Positions 12,285 through 47,843 of a stretch of 64,000 bases of DNA are shown here, piece after piece. Numbering within the stretch: position 1 is the first letter of the stretch; the number at the start of each line of letters is the position of its first letter. Position numbers and translations under genes: made by a program. Source of the stretch: an uncultured Prevotella sp. (GTDB lineage Bacteria; Bacteroidota; Bacteroidia; Bacteroidales; Bacteroidaceae); NCBI GenBank assembly GCA_964386825.1, contig CAYLUI010000010.1, positions 11,797 to 75,796 on the forward strand, given 5' to 3'. Under the pieces are notes generated by a model that was not told the DNA's origin, did not search any database, and saw nothing but the letters and a program-made list of their open reading frames with translations.

Positions 12285-13295
12285 CTAATCACCAGCCGCC
12301 ACGATAAGCGACAAGCCTACTATAAAAAAGAAGAACATCAGTGCCAACAAGCGGTCAACAGTCTTGCCAGCTCCACGAAACTCTTTCCAAACGAATACGC
12401 CCCACAAAGCGGCAATCATAGGTGCACCCTGACCTAACGCATAAGATATGGCTGCACCCGCCTTACCAGCTGCAATGTAACTGAAAAGTGTGCCCACCCC
12501 CCAAATGACACCACCAAGCATTCCTATCAAATGAGTTTTTGTATTACCCTTAAAGTATTCACGGTAAGCCACCGGAGCACCATCCGCAGGATGGAGCATG
12601 AGTATTGTGTTGAATATGAAATTGCTTAGCAGTACTCCTATAGAAAAAATAAAGAAAGCTGTGTATGGCATAGCCTTTCCCACTATCGGATGCTCGAAGT
12701 TGTCAAGATCCATAGCAGCAGCTACAAAACGATAGAAGAAAGCCATCAATACGCCAGAGGCGATGGCAAGCACAATCCCCTTTCGGCTACGGCTCTTATC
12801 AACTTCAGTATCACCACCTTTCTTTGCGGAACATATTCCATTGAAAATCAGAGCTACAACGATTAATGCCACACCAAGGAACAGAAGTGAAGGATTGCCC
12901 TTAGGTGAGCCAAAATAGTTAACAAACACACCAATGACCAGCGCTAACCCCACACCCAACGGGAAAGCTACAGACATTCCAGCAAGGCTCATCGAGGCTG
13001 ACAACAAAATGTTGGAGCCATTAAAAATTATACCACCCATAAGGATGAAAACTATAGAAGTTGTAGAGACCTGCGCCATGTCTTCTGCAAAGCTTCGTCC
13101 ACTGTCACCTATACTACCAAGAGTAAATCCCATCAGTAGGGCAAAGGCTACCATTCCAATAACATAATCCCAATAGAACAATTCATAACGCCACGACTTA
13201 GCAGCCAGTTTCTGAGAGTTACCCCATGAACCCCAGCAAAGCATCGTGACAAAACAGAGTACAATGGCTAAATGATAACTATTTACTATAAACAT
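12285..13295 (-). CDS. DMT-superfamily (GRP/RhaT-like) sugar permease
   Basis: 336-aa protein that is hydrophobic throughout (about 10 TM segments). Readable blocks are 'CWGSWGNSQK' and 'GQGAPMIAALWGVFVWKEF'. It lies immediately downstream of the ribokinase. Confidence 0.6.
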   Translation of the reverse strand: MFIVNSYHLAIVLCFVTMLCWGSWGNSQKLAAKSWRYELFYWDYVIGMVAFALLMGFTLGSIGDSGRSFAEDMAQVSTTSIVFILMGGIIFNGSNILLSASMSLAGMSVAFPLGVGLALVIGVFVNYFGSPKGNPSLLFLGVALIVVALIFNGICSAKKGGDTEVDKSRSRKGIVLAIASGVLMAFFYRFVAAAMDLDNFEHPIVGKAMPYTAFFIFSIGVLLSNFIFNTILMLHPADGAPVAYREYFKGNTKTHLIGMLGGVIWGVGTLFSYIAAGKAGAAISYALGQGAPMIAALWGVFVWKEFRGAGKTVDRLLALMFFFFIVGLSLIVAAGD

Positions 13296-13333: not shown

Positions 13334-14254
13334 TCACTGTATTTCATCCAAATGTGGCATAGACATCTGAGCACCTACCCTAGTGACAGATATTGACGAA
13401 ACATTATTTGCAAAAGCCAAAGCTGAGTGCATATCCAAACCTTTTATAAGTGCAGCACAAAGAGCGCCGCAGAAAGTATCGCCAGCCGCAGTTGTGTCTA
13501 CAGCATTTACTTTTACCGCAGGCACAGTCATGAGTTCACCGTTTATCATAGCCACGACACCTTTCGAGCCAACGGTGACAATAACATCCTTCACACCTGT
13601 CTTCTGAATACTCACAATTGCCTTTGATATTGACTTATCATCTGAAATAGTGCATCCTGATATAGCTACGGCCTCTGTCTCGTTAGGAATGAGCAAATCT
13701 ACATTCTGCAGCAACTCTTCAAGAATCGGAGTTTTAGGTGCAGGCGCAGGATTAAGCACTACATAGCATCCACACTTTTTTGCCATTTTAGCTGCCACTG
13801 CAAGCGCATTGACTGGGTTCTCTAATTGCATCAACACTATCGATGCACCAACAAACGCTTCACTCGCTTTCTCTATATCTTCTGCATTAATATCGTAATT
13901 TGCACCAGAGTTGACAACAATACTATTTTCGCCACCATCTACCGTCGTTATTAGTGCTACACCAGTAGGCTTGTCATCAGAAGTAAAAAGATAATTCACG
14001 TCTATGCCCTCCCATGATAAATGGGCTATCGTAGACTTGCCAAAATCGTCATCGCCAACTTTTCCTACAAAGGTTGTCGAAACACCAAGTCGTGCAGCTG
14101 CAACAGCTTGGTTTGCTCCCTTTCCACCAAAGTTAGTTATAAAACCATTGCCAATAACAGTCTCTCCAGGTTGTGGGAAATGCGGAGCATGGATTACCAA
14201 ATCCATATTTGTACTTCCAACCACAACCAACCTGCCATTCTTTATCCTTTCCAT
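13334..14254 (-). CDS. rbsK: ribokinase
   Basis: PfkB-family protein with ribokinase-type motifs 'VVVGSTNMDL', 'GGKGANQAVAAARLG' and 'DTTAAGDTFCGAL'. The start is set at ATG M13 because the track ORF begins with TTG at 14290. Confidence 0.85.
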   Translation of the reverse strand: MERIKNGRLVVVGSTNMDLVIHAPHFPQPGETVIGNGFITNFGGKGANQAVAAARLGVSTTFVGKVGDDDFGKSTIAHLSWEGIDVNYLFTSDDKPTGVALITTVDGGENSIVVNSGANYDINAEDIEKASEAFVGASIVLMQLENPVNALAVAAKMAKKCGCYVVLNPAPAPKTPILEELLQNVDLLIPNETEAVAISGCTISDDKSISKAIVSIQKTGVKDVIVTVGSKGVVAMINGELMTVPAVKVNAVDTTAAGDTFCGALCAALIKGLDMHSALAFANNVSSISVTRVGAQMSMPHLDEIQ

Positions 14255-14293
14255 ATAGTTTTTATTGTTATAGGATAATGAAGCCAACAAGAG

Positions 14294-15793
14294 CTACTTG
14301 TTTATATATTTTTTCCCCTTAGACAGGATTATGCCACGATATGTTATGCTTATCCTTTGACCAGAAAGATTATAAATGTCATTACCCGACTGATTAGTCT
14401 TATCAATATCAACATTGCTTATACCAGTACTTTCGTTGACTTGATAAGCACCGCAATCAACTCGTGTAGTACGCACCACACCATCCTTGTCATTCTGAGG
14501 TACACTATCAGTCAACTCACCAAAACCGATAGCAGGACTCGATGACTTAATATGGAAATCAGCTTCATCAGAAGGAGAAGACGGCATACGAACGAAAAGA
14601 GGATCTCCATTTCTGAAGTTGCCATTAGCGCCACTGAGCTGTCCATTGTAATACACATTATTTATATATGTTGCTCCACCATTCCTGCCAAAATTAGTAC
14701 ATTTGCCATTAGGTTTTGAGTACATAATATTATTGATGATAATATTATTACTACCGCTTTGCGAAAAAATCTCACCATAATCGCCATTATAGCGCTGCTC
14801 ATTCATGAAGGTTGTATTGTTGACAATATAAATATCATGAGATTTATACGCATGTATGCCCGAACCACCATTGAAATAGCTAACATTATTAGCAACCAAC
14901 GTCTTAGCTCTATAGCCTCCATCAGCAATGACCTCTTCCGTGCTGCTGGCATCCGGAGTGTTATTGACATCCATTATTATACCATTGCCGTCAGAATATC
15001 GTGGTGTGTTCGCTGTGTACCACTTAATCTTCGTATGGTTATTGTAAACGGTGTTGCCCACAACTATATTCTTAAACCCAGTTTCATCATCACTATTCAC
15101 GGGATTAAGAATGCTGATGCCACTACAACCATACATAGTAAACCATGCATTGTTGTAAACAGTGTTGTTCTCAAACGTGATGTAGTCAGATTGCTGGGTC
15201 CCAAGACCTCCACCAGGGAAATCATGCACTACACAGTTTCGTATGATGACATGGTTTGGAAAAGAAGTATTCTTTCCTCCTGCACCAATGCTGACACCAT
15301 TGGTATTGTACATGGCAATTGTGTTCCAATCACGAGAATTATTGTATTTATAATCGTAAGCGACCTTGTCAGCCGTAGCAGAATCGAGGCTTTGGTTGTT
15401 GCCCTCCATTTCAAGACCATCAATAATGATATAAGATGCTTTAATGTTAATGCACTGCCATACACCCTTTCCACCAGCTCTCAACTTAGGTTTGTTGTCT
15501 GGGTCGTAAGCCTTGAAAGTAATGTATCTGTCTTCCGCACCAGAATTTTCTTCCTTTAGATCTATAACAGGCTTATAGTTGTTGAGAGATGAATATGTTC
15601 CAGGCATAATATTAATCACATCTCCCGGCTGCATGTTTGCGAGCACCTTAGAGAAAGTCCTCCAAGGCTTGTCAGCAGACAAACCATCGTAAGTATCCCT
15701 TCCTTTGGTTGAGATGTATAGCTGTCGGCTCTCCTGTGCTACGGCAGAGAGTACCATAAAGGCATAAAGCACCACTAAAATTATCCTTTTCAT
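14294..15793 (-). CDS. secreted right-handed parallel beta-helix protein with a T9SS-like C-terminal tail
   Basis: Signal peptide 'MKRIILVVLYAFMVLSAVAQ'. Beta-helix blocks are 'ASYIIIDGLEMEG', 'HVIIRNCVVHDFPGGGLG', 'VYNNAWFTMYGCSGISIL', 'SDGNGIIMDV' and 'ANNVSYFNGGSGIHAY'. The C-terminus is 'DIYNLSGQRISITYRGIILSKGKKYINK'. Confidence 0.7.
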   Translation of the reverse strand: MKRIILVVLYAFMVLSAVAQESRQLYISTKGRDTYDGLSADKPWRTFSKVLANMQPGDVINIMPGTYSSLNNYKPVIDLKEENSGAEDRYITFKAYDPDNKPKLRAGGKGVWQCINIKASYIIIDGLEMEGNNQSLDSATADKVAYDYKYNNSRDWNTIAMYNTNGVSIGAGGKNTSFPNHVIIRNCVVHDFPGGGLGTQQSDYITFENNTVYNNAWFTMYGCSGISILNPVNSDDETGFKNIVVGNTVYNNHTKIKWYTANTPRYSDGNGIIMDVNNTPDASSTEEVIADGGYRAKTLVANNVSYFNGGSGIHAYKSHDIYIVNNTTFMNEQRYNGDYGEIFSQSGSNNIIINNIMYSKPNGKCTNFGRNGGATYINNVYYNGQLSGANGNFRNGDPLFVRMPSSPSDEADFHIKSSSPAIGFGELTDSVPQNDKDGVVRTTRVDCGAYQVNESTGISNVDIDKTNQSGNDIYNLSGQRISITYRGIILSKGKKYINK

Positions 15794-15805
15794 GTTGTTT
15801 TGTTT

Positions 15806-17062
15806 TCACCAGTGCATCAACTCTTTGATGTCGTTCGAACCGGCATCTATAAGTTTTGAAGCTGTTTTAATATTATTCGTTATAAGTTTATAAGCGGGTT
15901 CAGGATTGTTGTAAATATCAAGAAGACAATCAGAAAGTTGCTGACCATTTGTCTTGTCAACATCAAACACCCAATTGCCGAAGCCTAGATCGTAATACAT
16001 CTGTCCCTTAACTGTGTCCTCTGGCTGCCTGACATAAAAAGCTGGAGTGCCTTTGGCAAGTGCCATAATAACAGAATGGCATTCCAAACTAACTAGCGCA
16101 AAAGCATGAGTTAGGAAAGACGTAGCCTCGTCAGGCCACCAATAGTCATGTTTGTAAACATAAGGTTTTACGTCGGCAGGCAATTTGTCTATCAGAAGTT
16201 CATTAAACAAAGGCACCTGATACGTCATCTCTGCACACACCACAACCTTTTTATGAGTCTTCCTCACCCACTGCGTTATCATCTCACGCAACTTTGCATG
16301 ATCTTTCTCTTTACATGAATCGTTGAGGTGATTGATACGTGCCAACTCTTCCGACGAAAACTGCGGATAAGGTGTACGACGCAAGCGTGGTATAACACAG
16401 ATATAGCCTTTATCTTCTATATTATGAGCTTTCAACCATTTCTTGACTGGTTTCTCATTGCGCATTCTCAAAGCGAAAACTGCATCCGGAACAAAACGCA
16501 CTATATCCGGCTTATTGATGCCAAACCGTTTCAAGCTATCACAAGAAGCAGTCTCGCGGGTATAGATAAACTTGGCACCATTGAGCAACTTTGTCAATTG
16601 CGGAGTAGTCCATTGTATAGTAGCCCCAAATACGCCGTAAGGTTTGCCTGTGAGTTTTTTGAAAGCAGCAAGATGCTTATCGCCTAAAATCATAGGACCA
16701 GAGCCATGAATCATCAAATCGGCAGACAGCATACTTTTAATGACCTCATCACTTTTCACAGTCAGGTTATCACTGACATCTCCAGAGACAACTTTAACCT
16801 TTGGGAAATACTTCTTAATGAATCTGCCAACTGAAGCTGTTGTTGAGTCATTTTTCCATATCCATACCGTCATATCAGCATTAGGTATATTCTTATGTAA
16901 CGCAGACAGTATACCAGGGGTGTGGGCTATATCACCAACATTCTGGTTCTGCCATCCCGATACAATGAGAATATTGGGACGTTTCTTTGAAGCACTATTG
17001 CCCATTAATGGGTACAACAGTGCCAAAGTAAGGATGAATCTGCAAATAAATCTACTCTTCAT
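15806..17062 (-). CDS. polysaccharide pyruvyl-transferase-fold protein with an N-terminal export signal
   Basis: 418 aa. The hydrophobic N-terminus is 'MKSRFICRFILTLALLYPLMG'. The PS_pyruv_trans-like layout shows 'WQNQNVGDIAHTPG', 'IYTRETASCDSLKRFG', 'VPDAVFAL' and 'LECHSVIMALAKGTPAFYV'. Confidence 0.7.
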   Translation of the reverse strand: MKSRFICRFILTLALLYPLMGNSASKKRPNILIVSGWQNQNVGDIAHTPGILSALHKNIPNADMTVWIWKNDSTTASVGRFIKKYFPKVKVVSGDVSDNLTVKSDEVIKSMLSADLMIHGSGPMILGDKHLAAFKKLTGKPYGVFGATIQWTTPQLTKLLNGAKFIYTRETASCDSLKRFGINKPDIVRFVPDAVFALRMRNEKPVKKWLKAHNIEDKGYICVIPRLRRTPYPQFSSEELARINHLNDSCKEKDHAKLREMITQWVRKTHKKVVVCAEMTYQVPLFNELLIDKLPADVKPYVYKHDYWWPDEATSFLTHAFALVSLECHSVIMALAKGTPAFYVRQPEDTVKGQMYYDLGFGNWVFDVDKTNGQQLSDCLLDIYNNPEPAYKLITNNIKTASKLIDAGSNDIKELMHW

Positions 17063-18335
17063 AAGTAAAGTTTATTGCGCCAAATCCTGTAGCAGGACTG
17101 CCTTCGCGACCTCTGAAGTCGGCGAAGTTAAGATCTGTGTATGGAAACACGAATTGAGGGTCAGCAATGATGTCATGCTCTCCTCTTACAACTTTTTGGT
17201 CAACTGGATAAACATTATAATCCCATTGTATGTCTTGGTTTCTATTGTTAGATGTTACTCTGCCACCAGGACGCGGAACGATTATATTGTTTCTTACAAC
17301 AATATCATAGCTGGCATTCGCAAAAAGTTCCTCATAGTCAACACAGCCACCATTCCAATAAGTGGTATTATTAAGGATGTCGACATGGCATGTACGGAAA
17401 GTGTGGATTCCAGAACCGCCATTAAAAACACTGATGTTATTAGCAATCAGCGAACGGTTGTTCCAAACTGGTCTTAACGACTTACGCTTGCTATTATCAT
17501 CTTTATCTTTCTTTATTATGGCATCTCCGTCAGGATTAGTCGTAGACTGTCCGTCACGGTTGGTCACATCAAGCAGTATGCCATTGCCATCGCTCAGTTT
17601 TCCAATTTTCTCCCAAGGCACCAGCGTACGGTTGTTGCAAACACGGTTACGTTGTATAACGACATGATAGCCAGGTTTATTGTCAAACGCCCAAAGATTG
17701 AGAGTTGTAATACCCGAACCACCATAACGCATAAACCACGCATTGTTGTAAACATAACAATCCTCCACTGTAACGTAGTCGCACTCTATCATAGCTATGC
17801 CACCACCTGAACATTTGCCTACCTCGCAATTGCGTATTATAATGTGATGAGGCTTATTGTTGATAGGACAAGTTCTGCCTTCCACAAATATGCCATTGGT
17901 GTTGAAAGTAGGATTTGGAGTCTCATTCGCAGCATCTGCAATGGCATATTTCAAAGCAATAGAATCATTACAGCCAATCACTTTCAAGCCATCTATAATC
18001 TGATAGGAAGCCTCAATCCTTATACCAGCCCACAGATTAGGATGTAGAACAGGATGTTCTCCCTTGATGGCACGCCAGGTAATCCACTTCTTTGAAGTGC
18101 CTGATCTCTTGATAATCAAAATGCCATTCTTGTTGTCACTGGTATAAACACCATCACCAATCAGTACCACATCGCCAGGATTTACCCTGTCAGCAACATA
18201 CTGCAAAGTGCGCAGAGCCGTTTTCTCCGATCGACCGTCATTACCGTCATTACCATTGCCCCTGACATACCACTCTCTTGCATTGAGTGAAAGGCATGTC
18301 AGAGCCATAGCAAGACAAAACAGAATCCGTTTCAT
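17052..18335 (-). CDS. secreted right-handed parallel beta-helix protein (paralog of 14294..15793)
   Basis: Signal peptide 'MKRILFCLAMALTCLSLNA'. It shares blocks with its paralog: 'ASYQIIDGLKVIG', 'HIIIRNCEVGKCSGGGIA', 'VYNNAWFMRYGGSGITTL', 'SDGNGILLDV' and 'ANNISVFNGGSGIHTF'. It overlaps the next gene by 11 nt. Confidence 0.7.
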   Translation of the reverse strand: MKRILFCLAMALTCLSLNAREWYVRGNGNDGNDGRSEKTALRTLQYVADRVNPGDVVLIGDGVYTSDNKNGILIIKRSGTSKKWITWRAIKGEHPVLHPNLWAGIRIEASYQIIDGLKVIGCNDSIALKYAIADAANETPNPTFNTNGIFVEGRTCPINNKPHHIIIRNCEVGKCSGGGIAMIECDYVTVEDCYVYNNAWFMRYGGSGITTLNLWAFDNKPGYHVVIQRNRVCNNRTLVPWEKIGKLSDGNGILLDVTNRDGQSTTNPDGDAIIKKDKDDNSKRKSLRPVWNNRSLIANNISVFNGGSGIHTFRTCHVDILNNTTYWNGGCVDYEELFANASYDIVVRNNIIVPRPGGRVTSNNRNQDIQWDYNVYPVDQKVVRGEHDIIADPQFVFPYTDLNFADFRGREGSPATGFGAINFTYEE

Positions 18336-18341: not shown

Positions 18342-18920
18342 CTAGAGTTTTGATTTTATGAAATCAGTGTTAATGATTACAACCTGCGTTGCAAGTTTGT
18401 CGTTGATTTTAATAGACGAAGATGCCAATGTCACAGCAAAGGCAAGTTGTTTGCCTGCGTACTGAGGATCGTTAATAGTAGAGAGGTCAATCTCTGCTGT
18501 GAACGGAGCACTAACTCCACTAATCCTAACTTCATTAGGTATACTTACCTTATTATCAGGAAGAGCGATTACTGCATCATCAATAGTGCCATCTGCTATC
18601 TCCTTAGGTACTATAGTATCATTTAGCGCCAACTGAACATTGCCAGAACAGAACTCTATGCCAGACTGTACTACACCCATGTAGACAATAAGTTTTTGTT
18701 GTTGCTTGTCGATAGAGTAAAGTATCGGACCGCCTTTAGTAGGAGTTTCTGATGTCGACACGTCAGCACTGGAGTCAATGTGGAGTATGCCATCAGCTCG
18801 TGACTGATAAATCTCACTTGCCGGGTAATCCGCGTCAGCGTAATCATCGTAAGAACATGACGACATTAAGCCGATAACAGAAAGCAATGCACATAATATA
18901 AAATATAACCGTATCTTCAT
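18342..18920 (-). CDS. PUL-associated surface lipoprotein (DUF1735/Ig-like, SGBP position)
   Basis: Lipoprotein signal 'LLSVIGLMSSCSYDD'. It is 192 aa, beta-rich, and sits directly after a SusD gene. Confidence 0.45.
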   Translation of the reverse strand: MKIRLYFILCALLSVIGLMSSCSYDDYADADYPASEIYQSRADGILHIDSSADVSTSETPTKGGPILYSIDKQQQKLIVYMGVVQSGIEFCSGNVQLALNDTIVPKEIADGTIDDAVIALPDNKVSIPNEVRISGVSAPFTAEIDLSTINDPQYAGKQLAFAVTLASSSIKINDKLATQVVIINTDFIKSKL

Positions 18921-18990: not shown

Positions 18991-20706
18991 TCACCATCCC
19001 GGATTCTGAAACATCACACCAGGGAGCTTGTTAATCTCAGCCTGAGGAATAGGATAGAAATACATTTTCTTGTCGAACACTCTATCTTCAACCTTGAACG
19101 GAGTGTATGAATAATCCTTGTCACCTGTCTTCTCAATTTTAACACCACGCAATGGCTCAGAAAGAGTATCTTCGTCCATCCAGCGGCGCACATCGAAATA
19201 ACGTTTGCCTTCGAAACACAACTCCACACGGCGTTCCTGACGTATCAATTTGCGAACTTCGTCTTGAGAAAGTCCATCAGGCAAGCCTGGCATCTTTACA
19301 CCTGTACGGTCACGAAGCTTGTCATAATACTTCTTTATATCAGGATTTCTGGGATCATATTCGTTGAGAGCCTCTATGTAGTTGAGGTAGATTTCTGCCA
19401 GTCGGAAGTATATCCAAGTATGGATTGCCTTTTGGTCACGGGTCAGGTCAAGTGAAGTATTGATAAATTTCTTAATGTAGTAGCCTGTCGGTGTACAGTT
19501 GCGAACGCCCTCACCGTCAAGTCCACCTTTCCAGCACTCCACGGTTCTTGACTTCATGCTGCTTCCATTGGTAACAATCCAAAGCTTCAGACGAGGGTCA
19601 CGTCTATTGTAAGGATCGGCAGCCATTTTAGGGTTGTTCCAATCAAACTGTTCTGACTTGGATGACTTCCCTGAGCCTTCCTTTGTCATGAAAGCATCGA
19701 CAAGATTCTGCGATGGGCAGTTACCACCTGTCACCAAATCGAAGCCCATAGGAAGATTGACCCTCTCAAACGTATTCGTCTGAGCGTCTCTACGACAAAA
19801 GATAACCTCTTTGCTCCTGTAACCATTGGCACCGAAAAGTGATGTGTAAGAGTCTAAAGCATAACCTGCCGGATTTTCTATATCAATAACAGCCTTAGCT
19901 GCATCAGCAGCTGCCTTCCAACGTGCTGCACGGTCGCCTGCCGGTAGGCTTATAAGTTCCGGATGAGAATAGCCAGATGCCCATGATGAATTATTCCACA
20001 AATCGCTTGCAGCAAAGAGAAGGACTTCGCTCTTAAGAGCCAATGCTGCACCCTTTGTAAGACGTCCAAGTTCCTCATTTGTTTGCTTATAAGGCAACTT
20101 TTCAGATATTTCATCACAAATGCGAACTATCTCATTCACACAATCTTCCAACGAACTGCGCTGAAGATTCACATCATCACCATAATTGATTTTACCCTGA
20201 ATAAGAGGTACACCACCATAACGCTTAATAAGTTCAAAGAGATAGAATCCTCTTAACAATGTAACTTCACTCTTAAGCTGATCAATGTCCTTTAGGCGCT
20301 TCTCGTAAGTGCCCGGCTGGTCAGGATTATCCTTCACATCATCGAAATTGATGTTATCGGCATTGTCAACAAAGTTATAAACTTTGCGAATCGCTGTATA
20401 ATACTTTGAGAATGGATTGTCTGGCATATCACTTGCCATCCACGCTCCATTGTTCATTTTCTGCACAGAGGCAGTCTGTATGGTGAACTCAGCTTCATCA
20501 CAAGCAGAAGCCATCATGGCAGAGCCACTAATTTCAGACAAACCGCGAGGAAGATCTCCATATACTGAATAAGCCACACTGATGGCATTGTCATAAGAGG
20601 AGAAAGTAATATCCTTATTGAGAGTTGTCGTGAGCTTTTTGTCGAGATAATCATCGCAAGCAAAGAGCGATAACACCATTATTGCTAATAAAACAAATTT
20701 CTTCAT
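18991..20706 (-). CDS. SusD/RagB-family outer-membrane lipoprotein
   Basis: Lipobox 'LSLFACDDY', TPR-like SusD body, and the typical C-terminus 'YFYPIPQAEINKLPGVMFQNPGW'. Confidence 0.9.
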   Translation of the reverse strand: MKKFVLLAIMVLSLFACDDYLDKKLTTTLNKDITFSSYDNAISVAYSVYGDLPRGLSEISGSAMMASACDEAEFTIQTASVQKMNNGAWMASDMPDNPFSKYYTAIRKVYNFVDNADNINFDDVKDNPDQPGTYEKRLKDIDQLKSEVTLLRGFYLFELIKRYGGVPLIQGKINYGDDVNLQRSSLEDCVNEIVRICDEISEKLPYKQTNEELGRLTKGAALALKSEVLLFAASDLWNNSSWASGYSHPELISLPAGDRAARWKAAADAAKAVIDIENPAGYALDSYTSLFGANGYRSKEVIFCRRDAQTNTFERVNLPMGFDLVTGGNCPSQNLVDAFMTKEGSGKSSKSEQFDWNNPKMAADPYNRRDPRLKLWIVTNGSSMKSRTVECWKGGLDGEGVRNCTPTGYYIKKFINTSLDLTRDQKAIHTWIYFRLAEIYLNYIEALNEYDPRNPDIKKYYDKLRDRTGVKMPGLPDGLSQDEVRKLIRQERRVELCFEGKRYFDVRRWMDEDTLSEPLRGVKIEKTGDKDYSYTPFKVEDRVFDKKMYFYPIPQAEINKLPGVMFQNPGW

Positions 20707-20727
20707 TTTAGTATGTTCTTTTAATGA

Positions 20728-23550
20728 TTAGAACTTTAACTGGAAACCAAGGCTGTAAGTACGCATTGCAGGCATACCGGAGAGACCCTCTGGGTCTGCA
20801 TTTTTCATTCCAGTCATACCGCATAGTCTGAACAGATTGGTGCCATTGAGGAAAACACGGACATTCTTCATAAGAATCTTGTTAGCAATTCTCTCAGGAA
20901 GAGTATAACCTATCTCCAAATAACGTATCTTTAGGAAAGAACCATCATGCTGCCAAAATGAACTAAACTGGGTGTTATTTGGATTAGCCATTGTTGACAA
21001 ACGTGGATAACTGGCGTTAGGATTATCTTCTGTCCAACGGTCTTCAGCAGAGATTGGAGCAGAATACTGATTCATAAATGCCCAATATGTATTACCAGAA
21101 AGGTAAACTGTGCGTCCTGCTACTCCATAGAGCATAGTCTCTGCATCAAATCCTTTGTACTTAGCACCAAGGACAAGACTGCCAGAGAATCGAGGCAAAG
21201 ATGTGTTGCCAATAGCAGTTACATCCTGATTATCGATTTGATTATCACCATTAACATCAAGATACTTAATGTCACCAGGCTTAACATCACCAAACGTCTG
21301 GACGGGCGAATTGTCGATATCAGCTTGGTCGTGGAACAAGCCAATAGCCTTTAGTCCGAATCCCTGATCAATACCATGACCTGTGCGGACGAGGTTTGGA
21401 TATGCCCGGGGCTCCTCTGCCTCATAGTCAATTCTGTCCTTAGCATACCATCCATTGAATTGAGCATAATACTCAAAGCCATTCTTTAGCTTGTCAGCAT
21501 AACGAGCTTGCGCTTCAAATCCCTTATTAGTGGTCTTGCCAAGGTTCATTGCTGTGTAAGATATACCGAACATAGCAGGAATCTCACCAGAGGGGCTAGT
21601 AAGAATATCGCTGCGTTTGTGGAGGAAGTAGTCGAAACTGATGCCCAGCTTGTCAAACATTGTAGCATCGAAACCTATGTTGAAACGTTTTTCCTTTTCC
21701 CACGTAAGATTTGGATTGGCAACAGAACCTTCGGCTATGCCTGACTGAGAAGCATTGGTTGTTCCCTTATAGTAACCCTCCGTATATCCATAGTCAGCCA
21801 AATAAGCGTAACGCTTGTTACCCATGACGGCGGCATTGCCGACCAATCCGTATGATGTGCGAAGTTTAAGATAAGAAATCACCTTGTTCTCTTTCAAGAA
21901 TTTCTCATTGGATGCCGTCCAACCTAATGATCCTGCCGGGAACCAGCCAAACCTATGCCCCGAAGCATAAAGATCAGTGCCCATATAAGAAGCAGCGAAG
22001 TCGGCTGTATAACGGTCATCGTAAGTATAGCTTACATGACCTCTCCCACCTATATATTTATATGGGAACTCACGGTCTTTAAGGCTTGTGTTACTGTTGA
22101 GGTCATTAAAATTTGTAATTTCATCGACGAACCATTCAGCAGTTGCATCAACAGCGTGCTTACCACCATAAACACTTGAAAGAGTGAGTCCGGCATTAGC
22201 CGAAGTGTTGCGCCATTGATCATTGCTATTCTCATTGATAGTCATATTCGTTTCCTCACTATGGGGATTGTACTGGAAAGAACCATCATCAAGTCCCTCA
22301 AGAGAGAAATACTGGTACTTGCGGCTCTTGTTGCGATAACCAATAAAGTAGTTATTGAAAGCCACTCCTCCATGAGCAGACAGACCCTTTGTAAGAGCAC
22401 TAAGGTCATAGCGCAATCTGAGTTGCATCTGCACATTTCTAGAATTGTAGGAATTTAGGCCCGTCTCAAGAAGGTCACCTACAGGATTGCTATAAGTGGC
22501 GTTGCCACCATAGGAACCATTTGGATTATAGACAGGGAAAGCATTAGGAGGCGTATTGGCAATCTTATTGTACATACTCCATGCGCCCGCAGCCGGCCCA
22601 ACCTGATTTTGAATAGCTGCACCCATGCGCATATAGGCAGAAAGCTCGTCTGTGATATCAACATCAATATTAGCCCTGAAGTTGTAGCTGGTGAAATGCG
22701 AGTTGGCATTTTTATCCTGCTTATGGTCAGTGTCCTTGAAGAAGCCTCTGTTGTCGGAGATGTTGACAAGCGCAAAATAGCGCATGACATTGTTGCCGCC
22801 CCGGAAGTTCAAGTCATAGTTCTGCACAAATGAAGTGTTTTTGAGCACTTCCTTTGTCCAATCGACATTAGGATACAAGTATGGATTAGAACCCGTACGA
22901 TATGCCTCAAGAGCCTTTTCATCATAATAAGGTGTAAGCCCGTCATTGGCACGCGCCTCATTGTAAAGAGTAGCATATCCATAGCTGTCGAGGATTTTAG
23001 GCATGCGCTGTGGAGTATTCAAGCCTAACTGGAAATTAAAATTAATCTCCAGAGGCTGTACTTTTCCACGCTTGGTAGTTACAAGGAGCACGCCATTAGC
23101 AGCCTTCATACCATAGATGGCTGTAGCCGCAGCATCTTTGAGTAGAGACACAGACTCTATCTCTTCCACATTGAGGTAGTCCATAGTGCTTTCGAAGCCA
23201 TCAACAATGACCAACACTTTTCTGTCAGAGCGAGAAGTGGCAGAGAAGGTGCCTATACCGCGGGCAGTCAACGTAGGGCTATCACTACCAGGTTCGCCAC
23301 TTCCTTGCATGACAGTAAGCCCAGGCAGTTCGCCATAGAGTGTATTGAGAACGTTTTGGGTAAACGACTTTCTAAGTTTTTCACCTTTGACCGTCGAACG
23401 GCTACTTGACAAGTGGCTCTGTTGAATCAACCCGAACAGACTCTCTACCAGAGAATCTCGCTCCATCCAACCAGAACCATCGTTCTGGGCGGAAACGTTT
23501 AGAACTATGATTCCCGCCAGCAACAAAGTCATTAAATATCTCTTTTTCAT
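20728..23550 (-). CDS. SusC-type TonB-dependent transporter (no N-terminal carboxypeptidase-like domain)
   Basis: 940 aa. The plug region 'GELPGLTVMQGSGEPGSDSPTLTARGIGTF' starts about 70 aa in. The C-terminal residue is the beta-barrel F ('SLGFQLKF'). Confidence 0.9.
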   Translation of the reverse strand: MKKRYLMTLLLAGIIVLNVSAQNDGSGWMERDSLVESLFGLIQQSHLSSSRSTVKGEKLRKSFTQNVLNTLYGELPGLTVMQGSGEPGSDSPTLTARGIGTFSATSRSDRKVLVIVDGFESTMDYLNVEEIESVSLLKDAAATAIYGMKAANGVLLVTTKRGKVQPLEINFNFQLGLNTPQRMPKILDSYGYATLYNEARANDGLTPYYDEKALEAYRTGSNPYLYPNVDWTKEVLKNTSFVQNYDLNFRGGNNVMRYFALVNISDNRGFFKDTDHKQDKNANSHFTSYNFRANIDVDITDELSAYMRMGAAIQNQVGPAAGAWSMYNKIANTPPNAFPVYNPNGSYGGNATYSNPVGDLLETGLNSYNSRNVQMQLRLRYDLSALTKGLSAHGGVAFNNYFIGYRNKSRKYQYFSLEGLDDGSFQYNPHSEETNMTINENSNDQWRNTSANAGLTLSSVYGGKHAVDATAEWFVDEITNFNDLNSNTSLKDREFPYKYIGGRGHVSYTYDDRYTADFAASYMGTDLYASGHRFGWFPAGSLGWTASNEKFLKENKVISYLKLRTSYGLVGNAAVMGNKRYAYLADYGYTEGYYKGTTNASQSGIAEGSVANPNLTWEKEKRFNIGFDATMFDKLGISFDYFLHKRSDILTSPSGEIPAMFGISYTAMNLGKTTNKGFEAQARYADKLKNGFEYYAQFNGWYAKDRIDYEAEEPRAYPNLVRTGHGIDQGFGLKAIGLFHDQADIDNSPVQTFGDVKPGDIKYLDVNGDNQIDNQDVTAIGNTSLPRFSGSLVLGAKYKGFDAETMLYGVAGRTVYLSGNTYWAFMNQYSAPISAEDRWTEDNPNASYPRLSTMANPNNTQFSSFWQHDGSFLKIRYLEIGYTLPERIANKILMKNVRVFLNGTNLFRLCGMTGMKNADPEGLSGMPAMRTYSLGFQLKF

Positions 23551-23587
23551 ATTGAATAGTCAGATTTAAAGTATCTAAAGTTTGTTA

Positions 23588-25372: not shown

Positions 25373-25385
25373 GATTTCTCAGTTT

Positions 25386-28574: not shown

Positions 28575-28660
28575 ACGCAATTATTATCTTTATTAGTTAG
28601 ATTTCATAATAGGACATGTCATAACAAAGTAAAAGATTCACTTTGTTTACATTGACGCTA

Positions 28661-28751: not shown

Positions 28752-28797
28752 TCATAAAAGAAACAAATAGGAATGTCTTTAACAAGACATTCCTATT
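28752..28797 (-). terminator. rho-independent terminator of the HTCS gene
   Basis: 14-bp stem 'aataggaatgtctt'/'aagacattcctatt' containing the TAG stop, followed on the minus strand by 'tgtttcttttat'. Confidence 0.6.
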
Positions 28798-35944: not shown

Positions 35945-35948
35945 ATTC

Positions 35949-37568: not shown

Positions 37569-37610
37569 GTTATAAAGTGTTAAGTTGTACAATACCGAAA
37601 GAAGGAGATG

Positions 37611-41335: not shown

Positions 41336-41363
41336 GTCGCTCCTTTTTGATTTGATTAATGTT

Positions 41364-43562: not shown

Positions 43563-43575
43563 ATTCTGAGTTGTA

Positions 43576-44823: not shown

Positions 44824-44850
44824 ATGTGGTCATATTATTTATACATGATA

Positions 44851-44858
44851 CAAAGTTA
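44851..44858 (-). promoter_or_regulatory. candidate -7 box (TAACTTTG on minus strand) for the six-gene operon 44823->33971
   Basis: Plus-strand CAAAGTTA, 28 nt upstream of the ATG at 44823, inside the only sizeable gap (125 nt) in this part of the array. Confidence 0.4.
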
Positions 44859-44948
44859 GATAATATTTACCACATCATAATGGAAATTGTTTACAGATAA
44901 AATGGATTATTATTGCTAGCTTTCACAGGAACCTTTTGAAAAGAACAA

Positions 44949-47815: not shown

Positions 47816-47843
47816 GACACAAACATTTTTTAATCTATAGATT

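What the first reader, a model, noticed from the sequence alone, without database searches (positions are those of the whole stretch)
14294..18335. Exported pyruvyl-transferase-fold protein flanked by two paralogous beta-helix proteins inside a PUL (candidate depyruvylase/lyase module)
Seen: three back-to-back minus-strand genes (a 12-nt gap and an 11-nt overlap) lie directly downstream of the SusC/D pairs. The flanking proteins (499 and 427 aa) are clear paralogs. They share ordered blocks 'ASY(I/Q)IIDGL', 'H(V/I)IIRNC', 'VYNNAWF..YG.SGI', 'SDGNGI', 'ANN(V/I)S.FNGGSGIH' and 'NNTT', typical of right-handed parallel beta-helix carbohydrate-active enzymes. I cannot place them in a numbered PL/GH family by eye. 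The middle 418-aa protein has the PS_pyruv_trans (CsaB/WcaK/Pvg1-type) layout, yet it begins with a hydrophobic export signal. Established: this fold normally adds ketal-pyruvate from PEP during polysaccharide biosynthesis. PEP is not available outside the cytoplasm, and PULs are catabolic. Inference: the trio may bind, cleave or remove pyruvate ketals from a pyruvylated glycan (bacterial EPS/CPS, fungal pyruvylated galactomannan, algal galactan). The GH92, GH42-like and clan-D-like genes upstream would fit a Gal/Man-containing target. I know of no depyruvylase with this fold.
Basis: partly seen in the sequence, partly recalled or inferred. Interest (0 to 1): 0.78.

Follow-up and report, generated by a model that had tools for sequence, protein, structure and literature searches.

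The report
Secreted pyruvyl-transferase look-alike for glycan breakdown
A protein built like the cytoplasmic enzymes that add pyruvate to sugars is here exported and wired into a sugar-eating gene cluster, as are its hundreds of relatives, which makes the family the best available candidate for the still-unknown enzyme that removes pyruvate from polysaccharides.

Summary
Three minus-strand genes lie at the stated coordinates, with a 12-nt gap and an 11-nt overlap. The two flanking beta-helix proteins are paralogs (34% identity, E 4e-69). The middle protein is a PF04230 member with a GT-B fold.

New evidence:
- Its relatives (about 1,580 clusters, at least 317 species) almost all carry Tat, lipoprotein or Sec export leaders.
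- They usually sit directly after SusC/SusD. No polysaccharide-biosynthesis families appeared among their commonest neighbours.
- Distant members are fused to heparinase-like lyase, CBM6 and GDSL-esterase domains.
- Four residues mapped to the canonical donor/acceptor site are kept. The PEP-contacting Arg of the R-x-H motif is Glu/Asp in 103 of 103 copies.

Best reading (about 0.45): a periplasmic enzyme that removes ketal pyruvate. Nothing here shows pyruvate specificity.

- The beta-helix proteins are distantly PL9-like and are the core depolymerases of a separate, conserved PUL type that often lacks the pyruvyl-transferase-like gene. The trio is therefore not an obligate module.
- The operon ends in ribokinase plus a permease (rus-type), and hexuronate catabolism genes lie nearby.
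- Some gene callers start the middle gene at M20, which would remove the leader.

No depyruvylase turned up in ten full-text literature searches.

The parts
15806..17062 (-). Exported pyruvyl-transferase-like (PT-like) protein, 418 aa. It has a GT-B fold and is the candidate enzyme for removing ketal pyruvate in the periplasm.
   Evidence: PF04230 at 63.2 bits. AlphaFold model with pLDDT 92.9 and two Rossmann-like domains. Foldseek gives only generic GT-B matches. About 1,580 homolog clusters with export leaders. hhalign against canonical pyruvyl transferases gives Prob 99.1. D44, R169, R228 and H329 are kept; the Arg of the R-x-H motif is E327.
17052..18335 (-). Beta-helix protein BH427, with a Sec-type leader and no C-terminal tail. 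Probably a periplasmic depolymerase, either a lyase or a hydrolase.
   Evidence: PF13229 at E 3.4e-7. 773 homologs, with orthologs 55-80% identical across Bacteroidota. Model pLDDT 88.8. Best fold matches are Pel9A (PL9), a PL9 rhamnogalacturonan lyase, PL6, GH136 and GH141. A profile of the family hits Pel9A at E 2e-9.
14294..15793 (-). Beta-helix protein BH499, a paralog of BH427. It has a Sec-type leader, a choice-of-anchor-Q domain and a short C-terminal tail that by eye resembles a T9SS sorting signal. Possibly surface-located or secreted.
   Evidence: Paralogy at E 4e-69. choice_anch_Q at 27.7 bits when the C-terminal piece is scanned alone. The tail sequence is shown. Hymenobacter paralogs carry Por_Secre_tail. 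Orthologs 47-50% identical occur in L084, L085-87 and L001.
18342..18920 (-). 192-aa lipoprotein of the DUF1735 / BT_3987-like_N kind. Probably an accessory glycan-binding protein.
   Evidence: Lipobox LMSSC. It clusters with family c10, whose representative matches PF08522 plus PKD. The ortholog in L101 has a weak PF08522 hit.
18991..28580 (-). Two SusC/SusD pairs: SusC 25386-28580, SusD 23588-25372, SusC 20728-23550, SusD 18991-20706.
   Evidence: Pfam Plug, TonB_dep_Rec and SusD_RagB.
28793..32839 (-). Hybrid two-component sensor/regulator (HTCS), followed by a 19-pair hairpin at 28761-28802.
   Evidence: Reg_prop, Y_Y_Y, HisKA, HATPase_c, Response_reg and HTH_18. Hairpin.
13334..14290 (-). 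Ribokinase.
   Evidence: TIGR02152 at 344.9 bits against a cut-off of 299.65.
12285..13295 (-). Sugar permease of the RhaT/GlcU type (RusT-like). It is the last gene of the unit. A 12-pair GC-rich hairpin follows at 12190-12216.
   Evidence: PF06800, PF07168 and TIGR00776. Hairpin.
33971..46889 (-). Upstream CAZyme block: GH42-like, GH31, ADP-ribosylglycohydrolase-family protein, GH94-superfamily-like protein, GH92, a conserved 415-aa unknown, and GH88+DUF4861.
   Evidence: GH92 and the 415-aa unknown are conserved in L001 and L085.
47078..63934 (-). Third SusC/SusD pair plus hexuronate catabolism genes and further glycoside hydrolases: exported RraA-like protein, SusD, SusC, SDR, UxaC, RraA-like, UxuA, SSF transporter, GH10+GH42-like, GH3.
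   Evidence: The set SSF-UxuA-RraA-UxaC-SDR-unknown-GH92 follows the PT-like gene in L001 and L085-87.

Best explanation
Throughout, PT-like means the exported pyruvyl-transferase-like protein (15806-17062), and BH427 and BH499 are the two beta-helix proteins.

What the unit is. The three genes are part of one roughly 16-kb PUL transcription unit: SusC-SusD-SusC-SusD-lipoprotein-BH427-PT-like-BH499-ribokinase-permease. It lies downstream of an HTCS regulator. It belongs to a larger catabolic region for an acidic glycan that contains mannose and uronic acid.

Shown by sequence and comparison:
- All three proteins have export leaders.
- BH427 and BH499 are old paralogs of an unclassified, distantly PL9/PL6-like beta-helix family.
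- The middle protein is a true homolog of ketal-pyruvyl transferases.
- It belongs to a distinct clade that is exported, sits next to SusC/SusD, and has an acidic residue where the canonical enzymes have a PEP-contacting arginine.

Inferred mechanism:
- BH499 cuts the polymer, perhaps at the cell surface.
- The SusC/SusD pairs import the fragments.
- In the periplasm, BH427 cuts them further.
- The PT-like enzyme binds a 4,6-O-(1-carboxyethylidene) sugar through the retained Arg/His(/Lys) carboxylate site and the N-x-G-D acceptor loop.
- It hydrolyses the ketal to free pyruvate and an unblocked sugar. E327 would act as the general acid, opening the ketal to an oxocarbenium ion that water attacks.
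- The unblocked sugar becomes accessible to the exo-glycosidases (GH92, GH31, GH3, GH88 and others).
- Running the transferase backwards to make PEP is thermodynamically excluded, and PEP is not available outside the cytoplasm.

Role in the wider family. The PT-like gene is a portable accessory added to many different PUL types. The beta-helix pair is the core depolymerase set of this PUL type and is not itself linked to pyruvate.
For: Export. Of the 120 closest homologs, 78 have Tat-like RR leaders, 19 a lipobox and 17 Sec-like leaders. The conserved core starts a median of 39 residues in. In six canonical pyruvyl transferases the N-x-G-D (or N-x-G-V) motif starts at residue 12-15.

Context. 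317 GTDB species genomes encode a relative. In 80 fetched loci the gene is mostly immediately after SusD, often as sigma/anti-sigma-SusC-SusD-PT(-PT-PT-PT). The 86 de-duplicated neighbours match 115 Pfam families. The 25 commonest are glycoside hydrolases (GH29, GH97, GH106, GH3, GH127), FAD and Gfo/Idh/MocA oxidoreductases, beta-helix proteins and transporters, with no biosynthesis families among them.

Fusions. The PT-like domain is joined to Hepar_II_III/DUF4962 lyase-like domains in three proteins. It is joined to Golvesin_C+CBM6+GDSL esterase in a tandem pair of roughly 1,450-aa secreted proteins.

Active site. hhalign of the clade against seven canonical pyruvyl transferases gives Prob 99.1, E 5e-18, over the full length. 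D44, R169, R228 and H329 align with Pvg1p D106, R217, R266 and H339 (CsaB R148, R207 and H308 for the last three). The Arg of T-R-[LFM]-H-S (Pvg1p R337, CsaB R306), described as a PEP contact in PMC4872226 and PMC10435577, is E in 101 and D in 2 of 103 copies.

Conservation. There are 67 invariant positions among 88 sequences that are about 46% identical to the window protein. The conserved motifs lie at the C-terminal ends of beta-strands of both domains, which is the GT-B cleft.

Acidic substrate. The window holds GH88, UxaC, UxuA and an SDR. The same catabolic set follows the PT-like gene in L001 and L085-87. CE15-like esterases adjoin it in L013, L025 and L079.

Operon. The only two long stem-loops in the 18-kb scan (12 and 19 pairs) lie at its two ends, 12190-12216 and 28761-28802; the other terminator-like hits are weak and no more frequent than in shuffled sequence.

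Literature. No enzyme that removes ketal pyruvate was found in the held paper library. PMC6090015 states that enzymes degrading pyruvylated glycans are poorly known.
Against: - No assay, structure with ligand or expression data exists. Nothing computed here shows pyruvate specificity.
- Foldseek finds only generic GT-B relatives, with TM-scores of 0.5-0.6.
- Many close homologs use Tat leaders. This is unexplained for an enzyme expected to need no cofactor.
- Distant members with the same E-x-H-S motif lack any leader. About 22 of 98 full-length 50%-identity representatives are of this kind. One, P0281, sits after an exported beta-helix gene. The acidic substitution is therefore not strictly tied to export.
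- A few members keep the Arg (P0286, P0292, P0296).
- Several PULs contain PT-like genes as their only exported enzymes. This requires that removing pyruvate alone makes the imported substrate usable.
- In this ortholog an M20 start would give a cytoplasmic protein.
- The mapping of the Lys equivalent (K352) is offset by two residues in the alignment.
Confidence: 0.45

Rival explanations
1. The pyruvyl-transferase-like (PT-like) clade is a periplasmic catabolic enzyme with a different substrate that also carries a carboxylate. Examples are a ketosidase for ulosonic acids (Kdo/DHA-type ketosides are chemically close to a pyruvate ketal), an etherase for lactyl or 1-carboxyethyl ethers, and a uronate-directed glycosidase or lyase.
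For: The retained Arg/His(/Lys) site would bind any alpha-carboxylate. The gene recurs next to uronate-related genes: GH88, UxaC/UxuA, CE15-like esterases and heparinase-like fusions. It also recurs next to ribose-related genes: ribokinase and an ADP-ribosylglycohydrolase-family protein in the window, and exported nucleoside-hydrolase-like neighbours in L055, L060 and L041. Capsules built of ribose and Kdo exist (my own knowledge). In some PULs PT-like genes are the only exported enzymes, which fits a glycosidase better than an enzyme that only removes a substituent.
Against: The only detectable sequence family is PF04230. Homology to genuine ketal-pyruvyl transferases extends over the full length, and the acceptor loop and donor-site residues are conserved. 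No known ketosidase or etherase has this fold. The extreme diversity of partner glycoside hydrolases (115 Pfam families among 86 neighbours) fits a common substituent better than a specific glycosidic linkage.
Confidence: 0.25
2. The pyruvyl-transferase-like (PT-like) protein is a non-catalytic binding protein or pseudoenzyme. It would recognise pyruvylated or acidic oligosaccharides in the periplasm, for example to hand them to transporters or sensors.
For: It has lost one canonical catalytic or PEP-binding Arg. It is placed directly after SusD, where accessory binding proteins often lie. Tandem copies occur, as is seen for binding proteins.
Against: There are 67 invariant positions, many of them charged or polar and located in cleft loops, among sequences about 46% identical to the window protein. 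Tat and periplasmic targeting argues against a surface location. The domain is fused to catalytic lyase-like and esterase domains in the manner of a catalytic module, alongside a separate CBM6.
Confidence: 0.08
3. It is a genuine pyruvyl transferase. Either it is cytoplasmic, starting at M20, and decorates the cell's own glycans, or it is periplasmic and uses an unknown donor. On this view it sits in the PUL by chance.
For: It scores above the PF04230 threshold. Gene callers pick M20 in three near-identical contigs. Leaderless relatives exist. In E. coli, wcaK lies two genes from wcaM, which I recall to be a beta-helix protein, in a biosynthetic cluster.
Against: The long open reading frame is intact in every strain examined, with conservative changes. 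Every more distant ortholog has a leader at the same position, of three different kinds. The gene overlaps its exported upstream neighbour (BH427) by 11 nt and is followed 12 nt downstream by another exported gene (BH499), inside a SusC/SusD operon. No biosynthesis families appear among the commonest neighbours. The PEP-contact Arg is replaced. PEP is absent from the periplasm (established knowledge). WcaM shows no homology to the beta-helix family here.
Confidence: 0.07

Closest known systems
Ketal-pyruvyl transferases of PF04230 (E. coli WcaK, Paenibacillus alvei CsaB, S. pombe Pvg1p, Xanthomonas GumL)
   Same: Homologous over the full length (hhalign Prob 99.1). GT-B-like two-domain fold. 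The N-x-G-D acceptor loop, the R-[DE]-x-x-S arginine, the loop-1 arginine and the His of R-x-H are all kept.
   Different: This clade has Tat, lipoprotein or Sec leaders, whereas the canonical enzymes have a leaderless cytoplasmic N-terminus. It lies in PULs rather than biosynthesis clusters. The Arg of R-x-H is Glu or Asp. It has clade-specific invariant motifs (SGWQ..N.GDI.HTPG, HGSGP, P-R-x-R-x-TPY, KGQMYYDL). The expected reaction runs the opposite way, as hydrolysis, with no PEP involved.
Known ways of dealing with pyruvylated termini: PL8 xanthan lyase, which releases whole pyruvylated mannose, and Bacillus PvGal-ase, which releases pyruvylated galactose (PMC6090015)
   Same: A catabolic, extracytoplasmic response to a ketal-pyruvate cap that blocks exo-glycosidases. 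An association with GH88, alpha-mannosidases and uronate catabolism, as in xanthan loci.
   Different: Those enzymes remove the whole pyruvylated sugar and leave the ketal intact, and they have unrelated folds. The protein here would remove only the pyruvate. No such activity appears in the searched literature.
Ribose utilisation (rus) PULs of Bacteroidota (Glowacki et al., bioRxiv 10.1101/574913)
   Same: Ribokinase plus a RusT-like permease joined to SusC/SusD and a variable enzyme set. An ADP-ribosylglycohydrolase-family gene lies nearby. That paper reports 70 configurations of up to 36 genes.
   Different: The regulator here is an HTCS, and no RusR homolog was seen. There is no nucleoside hydrolase in the window. 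Pyruvyl-transferase-like and beta-helix genes are not among the enzyme classes named in the passages of that paper that I read, and it has no hit for 'pyruvyl transferase'. Ribokinase and permease accompany the PT-like gene only rarely elsewhere.
PL9 lyases (Dickeya Pel9A, PDB 1ru4; B. thetaiotaomicron rhamnogalacturonan lyase, PDB 5olq) and PL6 lyases
   Same: Right-handed parallel beta-helix fold. These are the best fold matches and there is a significant profile match (E 2e-9 and 4e-8), mainly over the N-terminal cap. The context points to acidic glycans, with GH88 present.
   Different: Identity is only 13-16% and TM-scores are about 0.5. The central catalytic region does not align, so the Ca2+ site and the Lys base cannot be mapped. 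Beta-helix hydrolases (GH136, GH141, GH120) score almost as well. The conserved motifs SDGNGI and NGGSGIH are family-specific.
GT-B-fold enzymes that carry out elimination or hydrolysis rather than transfer: hydrolysing and non-hydrolysing UDP-GlcNAc 2-epimerases, and GT80 sialyltransferases with sialidase activity (my own knowledge)
   Same: The same fold class. The epimerases are the top Foldseek matches. They are precedents for chemistry through oxocarbenium or enol-ether intermediates in this fold.
   Different: There is no sequence relationship. Those enzymes are cytoplasmic and use nucleotide-sugar substrates.

Membership tests
PS_pyruv_trans (PF04230) polysaccharide pyruvyl transferases | Match to the family HMM above the curated threshold | tested here: met
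   63.2 bits against a cut-off of 25.3, residues 41-344. Profile-profile comparison with 7 canonical members gives Prob 99.1.
PS_pyruv_trans (PF04230) polysaccharide pyruvyl transferases | GT-B-like two-Rossmann-domain fold | tested here: met
   AlphaFold model with pLDDT 92.9. Foldseek gives GT-B hits only.
PS_pyruv_trans (PF04230) polysaccharide pyruvyl transferases | Acceptor-loop Asp (Pvg1p D106) and the first PEP-binding Arg (Pvg1p R217 / CsaB R148) | tested here: met
   N41-x-G43-D44 and R169 are invariant in 88 sequences and align to WcaK N-R-G-D and L-R-E-S.
PS_pyruv_trans (PF04230) polysaccharide pyruvyl transferases | The R-x-H motif: the second PEP-contacting Arg (Pvg1p R337 / CsaB R306) with the His (H339 / H308) | tested here: not met
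   The His is kept (H329). The Arg is Glu in 101 and Asp in 2 of 103 copies, whereas 5 of 7 canonical sequences have T/G-R-[LFM]-H. Residue roles are taken from PMC4872226 and PMC10435577.
PS_pyruv_trans (PF04230) polysaccharide pyruvyl transferases | Cytoplasmic location with access to PEP | tested here: not met
   An n-h-c leader in the window protein. 114 of 120 homologs have Tat, lipobox or Sec-type leaders by my heuristic. No SignalP or experiment was available, and the M20 alternative start is a caveat.
PS_pyruv_trans (PF04230) polysaccharide pyruvyl transferases | Location in a glycan biosynthesis cluster (glycosyltransferases, flippase, polymerase) | tested here: not met
   PUL context in the window and in 47 of 80 loci. 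No biosynthesis families among the 25 commonest neighbour families.
PS_pyruv_trans (PF04230) polysaccharide pyruvyl transferases | PEP-dependent ketal-pyruvyl transfer activity | not testable with these tools
   Needs a phosphate-release assay with PEP and candidate acceptors.
Polysaccharide utilisation locus (Sus-like system) | Adjacent SusC-like TonB-dependent transporter and SusD-like genes, with a regulator and carbohydrate-active enzymes on the same strand | tested here: met
   Three SusC/SusD pairs, an HTCS, an AraC regulator, and GH31, GH92, GH88, GH3, a GH10-domain protein and a GH42-like protein.
rus-type (ribose utilisation) PUL | Ribokinase and a RusT-like permease adjacent to SusC/SusD | tested here: met
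   Ribokinase TIGR02152 above its cut-off. The permease is of the RhaT/GlcU type at family level only. Both are the last two genes of the unit. The definition comes from bioRxiv 10.1101/574913.
rus-type (ribose utilisation) PUL | RusR-type regulator; induction by ribose | not tested
   An HTCS is present instead. No comparison with RusR was made, and there are no expression data.
PL9 polysaccharide lyases (for the two beta-helix proteins) | Right-handed beta-helix with detectable homology to Pel9A | tested here: met
   Foldseek top hit is 1ru4. Profile hit to 1ru4 at E 2e-9 and to 5olq at 4e-8, mostly over the N-terminal 110 residues. A precomputed PF22842 hit is listed but was not reproduced by my own Pfam scan.
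PL9 polysaccharide lyases (for the two beta-helix proteins) | Catalytic Lys base and the Ca2+-binding Asp cluster on the helix face; beta-elimination activity | tested here: inconclusive
   The central region does not align in the sequence profile, and no residue-level structural alignment was available. GH136, GH141 and GH120 hydrolases are also among the hits.
T9SS cargo (for BH499) | C-terminal sorting domain (PF18962 / TIGR04183) | tested here: not met
   No HMM hit even at relaxed thresholds. There is only a resemblance by eye in the last 40 or so residues. Paralogs in Hymenobacter do carry PF18962.

The most novel reading that the evidence does not exclude
The exported clade of pyruvyl-transferase-like proteins is the missing depyruvylase. 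On this reading a transferase fold was turned into a ketal-pyruvate hydrolase (or ketal-opening lyase) by export and by an Arg-to-Glu switch in the donor site. Hundreds of Bacteroidota species would use it, often as the only enzyme of a SusC/SusD locus, to strip pyruvate caps from bacterial, fungal or algal glycans. It would found a new class of carbohydrate-active enzyme.
Probability: 0.4. Interest if true: 0.85.

Novelty: new variant of a known kind. Interest (0 to 1): 0.68.

Why it matters
Ketal pyruvate caps many abundant glycans. From my own knowledge and the review PMC6801904, these include xanthan, succinoglycan, colanic acid, many capsules and O-antigens, secondary cell wall polymers, S. 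pombe galactomannan and algal galactans. The cap blocks exo-glycosidases.

The only routes described remove the whole pyruvylated sugar. How the ketal itself is opened in nature is an open question (PMC6090015).

This work defines a large and well-bounded family. It comprises about 1,580 clusters at 90% identity, about 280 representatives at E<=1e-30, and at least 317 species. It supplies a clear hypothesis, named candidate catalytic residues (E327, H329, R169, R228, D44), and culturable hosts such as Dyadobacter, Runella, Spirosoma and Parabacteroides. The question becomes directly testable.

If confirmed, the family would:
- add a new activity class to carbohydrate-active enzyme annotation;
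- explain dozens of PULs whose only non-transport, non-regulatory genes are members of this family;
- provide a tool for tailoring xanthan-type gums and for glycan analytics.

If refuted, the family is still an uncharacterised and very common PUL enzyme that deserves an assay.

Tried and rejected
- Sequence searches of the PDB with the pyruvyl-transferase-like (PT-like) protein, its family profile and WcaK found nothing usable.
- Foldseek of the PT-like model gave only generic GT-B neighbours. No pyruvyl transferase or hydrolase stood out.
- I tested whether the beta-helix proteins are relatives of E. coli WcaM, which I recall to be a beta-helix protein and which lies near wcaK. No homology was found (Prob 0.6), so I dropped the idea that the pairing of a pyruvyl transferase with a beta-helix protein is inherited from biosynthesis clusters.
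- I considered that the region is a xanthan-oligosaccharide PUL like that of B. intestinalis, because GH88, GH92 and GH3 are present. The passages of that paper that I read name its enzymes (two lyase candidates called PL-only and PL-CE, GH88, GH92, GH3, GH5) and no pyruvyl-transferase-like gene. The window also has GH31, GH10-like and GH42-like genes and ribose genes. I kept it only as an analogy.
- Phosphorolysis of the ketal to PEP was rejected on thermodynamic grounds (established energetics of PEP).
- I tried to map the PL9 catalytic residues onto the beta-helix family. The central region does not align.
- A T9SS tail in BH499 is not supported by HMMs.
- I tested whether the trio is an obligate module from the beta-helix side. 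Three of three further beta-helix orthologs lack a PT-like gene within 9 kb, so the idea was rejected.
- Ten literature searches for any enzyme that removes ketal pyruvate, or any mention of this family in PULs, found none.
- The organism could not be named. The exact proteins exist only in an unnamed 81-kb NCBI contig and in Logan assemblies. The closest GTDB species locus is 51% identical.

Full report
Abbreviations. PT-like is the exported pyruvyl-transferase-like protein (15806-17062). BH427 and BH499 are the two beta-helix proteins that flank it.

**1. The observation**

This gives a 12-nt gap and an 11-nt overlap.

The flanking proteins are clear paralogs, at 34% identity over 444 columns and E 4e-69.

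The middle protein matches PF04230 PS_pyruv_trans at 63.2 bits, against a gathering score of 25.3. The 427-aa protein matches PF13229 Beta_helix, and the 499-aa one matches it only weakly.

All three begin with n-h-c leaders:
- BH499: MKRIILVVLYAFMVLSAVAQ|E
- PT-like: MKSRFICRFILTLALLYPLMGNSA|S
- BH427: MKRILFCLAMALTCLSLNA|R

**2. The surroundings**

Every gene from 12285 to 63934 is on the minus strand. Around the trio the order is as follows:
- HTCS (28793-32839)
- SusC, SusD, SusC, SusD (18991-28580)
- a 192-aa lipoprotein
- BH427, PT-like, BH499
- ribokinase (TIGR02152, above its cut-off)
- a RhaT/GlcU-type permease

The only two long stem-loops in the 18-kb scan bracket this block, at 28761-28802 and 12190-12216. 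Weaker terminator-like hits inside it are no more numerous than in shuffled sequence. I therefore read it as one unit of about 16 kb. A DDE transposase (9783-11462) lies beyond it.

Further upstream lie these genes:
- an AraC regulator, a GH42-like gene and GH31
- an ADP-ribosylglycohydrolase-family protein
- a GH94-superfamily-like protein and GH92
- a conserved 415-aa unknown
- GH88+DUF4861
- an RraA-like protein with an export leader
- a third SusC/SusD pair
- an SDR, UxaC, a second RraA-like protein, UxuA and an SSF transporter
- a GH10+GH42-like protein and GH3

Ribokinase plus a permease next to SusC/SusD, with an ADP-ribosylglycohydrolase nearby, fits the published definition of the enzyme-diversified rus (ribose utilisation) PULs. 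That family has 70 configurations of up to 36 genes (bioRxiv 10.1101/574913).

**3. The PT-like protein is a member of a large exported clade**

Size. A homolog search returned 1,579 clusters. The best 120 are all 399-457 aa long and mostly 45-50% identical to the window protein. An exhaustive profile search of 1.84 billion representatives found 1,508 at E<=1e-3, 720 at E<=1e-10 and 280 at E<=1e-30.

Export leaders. The N-termini of the 120 are leaders of three different kinds. By a simple heuristic, 78 are Tat-type (for example MNRRKFIxQ, SRRNWIKQ), 19 have a lipobox (LALTGC and similar) and 17 are Sec-like. Six are unclear.

The conserved core begins with SGWQ..N.GDI.HTPG, a median of 39 residues into the protein. 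In six canonical transferases that I extracted, the homologous N-x-G-D (N-x-G-V in one) starts at residue 12-15, which leaves no room for a leader. These are E. coli and Salmonella WcaK and proteins from Rhizobium, L. plantarum, Novosphingobium and Priestia.

Three independent signal types at the same position across a clade are strong evidence for export.

The start-codon caveat. For this particular ortholog there is a real ambiguity. Gene callers start three near-identical copies at M20 (MGNSASKK..., 399 aa). In one of the two contigs I checked the upstream DNA is identical to the window. In the other the upstream ATG and open frame are kept, with the changes K2N, I10V, T12S and one synonymous substitution. 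The position of leaders in all other orthologs favours the long form. I put that at about 0.8.

**4. Genomic context of the clade**

A scan of one genome per GTDB species found 317 species with a relative. I fetched 80 loci with 10-kb flanks. They include Parabacteroides, Dyadobacter, Runella, Spirosoma, Fibrella, Telluribacter, Chitinophaga, Haliscomenobacter, Prolixibacteraceae and Flagellimonas.

My own ORF calling and clustering shows the following:
- SusC/SusD occur in 47 of the 80 loci.
- The PT-like gene is typically the first gene after SusD.
- A very common layout is ECF sigma, FecR anti-sigma, SusC, SusD, PT-like.
- Up to four tandem PT-like copies occur (Runella L009, L011).
- In many Dyadobacter loci there is no other same-strand gene after the PT-like copies.

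A Pfam scan of 86 de-duplicated same-strand neighbours hit 115 families. The commonest are FAD oxidoreductases (PF12831), beta-helix proteins, T9SS-tailed proteins, GH29, GH97, GH106, GH3, GH127, Gfo/Idh/MocA, sugar transporters and PfkB kinases. No biosynthesis family is in the top 25.

**5. Domain fusions**

Among more distant representatives, the PT-like domain is fused to other domains:
- Heparinase II/III-type lyase domains in P0262, P0265 and P0296.
- Golvesin_C+CBM6+GDSL esterase in P0293. This protein is one of a tandem pair of roughly 1,450-aa secreted proteins, next to a CBM6 protein that also has a faint SLH-domain hit.

An enzyme fused to a lyase-like domain, a carbohydrate-binding module and a deacylase is what one expects of a module that removes a substituent during degradation of an acidic polysaccharide.

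**6. The active site**

The AlphaFold model is confident (pLDDT 92.9) and shows a two-Rossmann-domain GT-B fold. Foldseek finds only generic GT-B relatives: UDP-GlcNAc 2-epimerases and UGT-type glycosyltransferases, with TM-scores of 0.5-0.6 and 10-15% identity.

Profile-profile alignment of the clade with seven canonical transferases is significant over the whole length (Prob 99.1, E 5e-18). I used the published residue roles for Pvg1p and CsaB (PMC4872226, PMC10435577). The clade keeps four of the mapped residues:
- the acceptor-loop Asp (D44, in N-x-G-D);
- the first PEP-binding Arg (R169, in T-R-E-T-x-S), which corresponds to Pvg1p R217 and CsaB R148;
- the loop-1 Arg (R228), which corresponds to CsaB R207;
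- the His of the R-x-H motif (H329), which corresponds to H339 and H308.

A Lys (K352) lies two residues from the canonical Lys position. Its mapping is uncertain.

The Arg of R-x-H (Pvg1p R337, CsaB R306) is a different matter. It is Glu in 101 and Asp in 2 of the 103 copies in the 80 loci (ECHS 79, EMHS 11, EPHS 10, DCHS 2, EQHS 1). Five of the seven canonical sequences have T/G-R-[LFM]-H.

The 88-sequence alignment has 67 invariant positions, although the sequences are only about 46% identical to the window protein. The conserved motifs sit at the C-terminal ends of the beta-strands of both domains, which is the inter-domain cleft.

I take this as evidence that the protein is an enzyme, that it still recognises a pyruvyl-type carboxylate, and that its donor chemistry has changed. 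An acidic residue where a phosphate-binding Arg used to be is a natural general acid for opening a ketal. That last step is inference.

**7. The beta-helix proteins**

BH427 has 773 homologs. Its orthologs are 55-80% identical across Bacteroidota (Spirosoma, Fibrella, Flavobacterium, Hymenobacter and others).

The model (pLDDT 88.8) is a right-handed beta-helix. Its best solved neighbours are Pel9A (PL9), GH136 lacto-N-biosidase, the AlgE4 epimerase, the B. thetaiotaomicron PL9 rhamnogalacturonan lyase, PL6 lyases and GH141. All have TM-scores of about 0.5 or below and 10-16% identity.

A family profile hits Pel9A (E 2e-9) and 5olq (E 4e-8), but mostly through the N-terminal cap. The catalytic face does not align. 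The proteins are therefore unclassified and distantly PL9/PL6-like. Lyase is somewhat more likely than hydrolase because of GH88 and the uronate catabolism genes, but this is not shown.

Both paralog lineages are old. Orthologs of each co-occur in L084, L001/L085-87 and L079.

BH499 has a choice-of-anchor-Q domain (27.7 bits). Its last 40 or so residues look by eye like a T9SS tail, with no HMM support. Paralogs in Hymenobacter do carry Por_Secre_tail.

**8. Is the trio a module?**

Only partly.
- From the PT-like side, a beta-helix gene is within 10 kb in 11 of 80 loci. It is also present in all the close-relative loci (L083-L087), although the gene order differs: BH-PT-GH2-BH in L084 and BH-BH-Big2-Big2-PT in L085.
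- From the beta-helix side, three of three further BH427 orthologs lack a PT-like gene within 9 kb (Flavobacterium L099, Hymenobacter L100, a Bacteroidales MAG L101). All three sit in recognisably the same PUL type.

That PUL type draws on two SusC/SusD pairs, a DUF1735 lipoprotein, beta-helix paralogs, GH39-like genes, SSF, SDR, RraA-like, GH10, alpha-mannosidases (GH125, GH38, GH92), GH2 and DUF4861.

The beta-helix pair is therefore the core depolymerase set of one PUL type, aimed at an acidic glycan rich in mannose and uronic acid. The PT-like gene is a portable accessory found in this and in many other PUL types. This is the behaviour expected of an enzyme for a variable substituent.

**9. 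Mechanism and rivals**

PEP is cytoplasmic. Running the transferase backwards, from ketal and phosphate to PEP, is strongly uphill given the energetics of PEP (established knowledge). An exported homolog can therefore only plausibly bind or cleave.

My best explanation is a periplasmic ketal-pyruvate hydrolase that unblocks imported oligosaccharides for the exo-glycosidases. I give it 0.45. I give about 0.85 to the broader statement that this is an exported catabolic enzyme of PULs.

Rivals:
- Another carboxylate-directed activity, such as an ulosonic-acid ketosidase, a carboxyethyl etherase or a uronide-directed enzyme (0.25). Recurring ribose and uronate neighbours encourage this view, as do PULs in which PT-like genes are the only exported enzymes.
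- A non-catalytic binder (0.08).
- A genuine transferase (0.07).

Points against my reading:
- The high use of Tat leaders is unexplained.
- Distant relatives with the same E-x-H-S motif have no leader. P0281, for example, lies after an exported beta-helix gene.
- A few members keep the Arg.

**10. Comparison with what is known, and novelty**

By homology and fold the protein is a PF04230 member. It fails three features that define the functional family: the R-x-H arginine, cytoplasmic location and biosynthetic context.

The locus is a PUL and, by the published definition, a rus-type PUL.

Ten full-text searches found no enzyme that removes ketal pyruvate and no discussion of this clade in PULs. 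A 2018 paper states that enzymes degrading pyruvylated glycans are poorly known (PMC6090015). The 2019 review of pyruvylation that surveyed PF04230 discussed only transferases in the passages I read (PMC6801904). CAZy itself could not be consulted.

I rate the finding a new variant of a known kind: a PUL carrying a repurposed transferase fold. If the activity is confirmed, it would be a new enzyme class.

Noticed in passing
window 47078-47815 (-): An RraA-like protein (the fold of HMG/CHA pyruvate aldolases and oxaloacetate decarboxylases; PF03737, E 4e-18) carries an N-terminal export or lipoprotein-like leader, MKRTSFFIRFAFLLLCGMSCSSVLAQ. It sits directly after a SusD gene. This fold is normally cytoplasmic. 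A second, leaderless RraA-like gene (55195-55923) lies between UxaC and UxuA and is 80% identical to its counterparts in L001, L085 and L086.
   Followed up: partly
window 14294-14430 (-), C-terminus of BH499: The last 40 or so residues (GISNVDIDKTNQSGNDIYNLSGQRISITYRGIILSKGKKYINK) look by eye like a short T9SS sorting tail. The L084 ortholog ends similarly. No HMM supports this, but BH paralogs in Hymenobacter (L100) carry PF18962. BH499 may therefore be the surface or secreted paralog and BH427 the periplasmic one.
   Followed up: partly
window 17003-17062 (-); L097 and L098: Gene callers start the pyruvyl-transferase-like (PT-like) gene at M20 (399 aa, no leader) in three near-identical assemblies. 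Of the two contigs I checked, L097 has upstream DNA identical to the window and L098 keeps the upstream ATG and an open frame. This start-site annotation inconsistency could hide the export signal in databases.
   Followed up: yes
window 12285-14290 (-) and 37611-39125 (-): Ribokinase plus a RusT-like permease end the operon, and an exported ADP-ribosylglycohydrolase-family protein lies upstream. The locus therefore qualifies as a rus-type (ribose utilisation) PUL. Elsewhere, PT-like genes adjoin exported inosine-uridine nucleoside-hydrolase-like proteins (L055, L060, L041).
   Followed up: partly
L009, L011, L035 (Runella): These PULs consist of sigma/anti-sigma, SusC, SusD and two to four tandem PT-like genes. 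A leaderless GH88-like protein, an Old-Yellow-Enzyme-type flavin reductase and an SDR follow. GH88-type enzymes hydrate vinyl ethers, so a two-step route is conceivable: the ketal is opened to an enolpyruvyl ether, which is then hydrated.
   Followed up: no
L013, L025, L079: CE15-like glucuronoyl esterases (PF22244) lie next to PT-like genes. This is another link to glucuronic-acid-containing substrates.
   Followed up: no
L096 (GCA_045637525.1 contig): Two tandem secreted proteins of about 1,450 aa have the architecture PT-like + Golvesin_C + CBM6 + GDSL esterase. A CBM6 protein with a faint SLH-domain hit is next to them, which is the only hint that the host might be Gram-positive. This shows an extracellular PT-like domain outside Bacteroidota.
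   Followed up: partly
window 43576-44823 (-): A 415-aa exported protein has no family assignment apart from a weak PD40/TolB-like beta-propeller repeat. It is conserved at 63-64% identity next to GH92 in L001 and L085. It may be an uncharacterised carbohydrate-active enzyme of this PUL type.
   Followed up: no
window 9783-11462 (-): A DDE transposase (DUF772 + DDE_Tnp_1) lies about 0.8 kb beyond the end of the PUL unit. It is also present at the same place in the Logan contigs L081 and L082.
   Followed up: no
homologs P0001-P0120; loci L001-L080: About two thirds of the close PT-like homologs use twin-arginine (Tat) leaders. That is unusual for a fold not known to carry a cofactor. It may mean a tightly bound ligand or a need to fold in the cytoplasm.
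   Followed up: no
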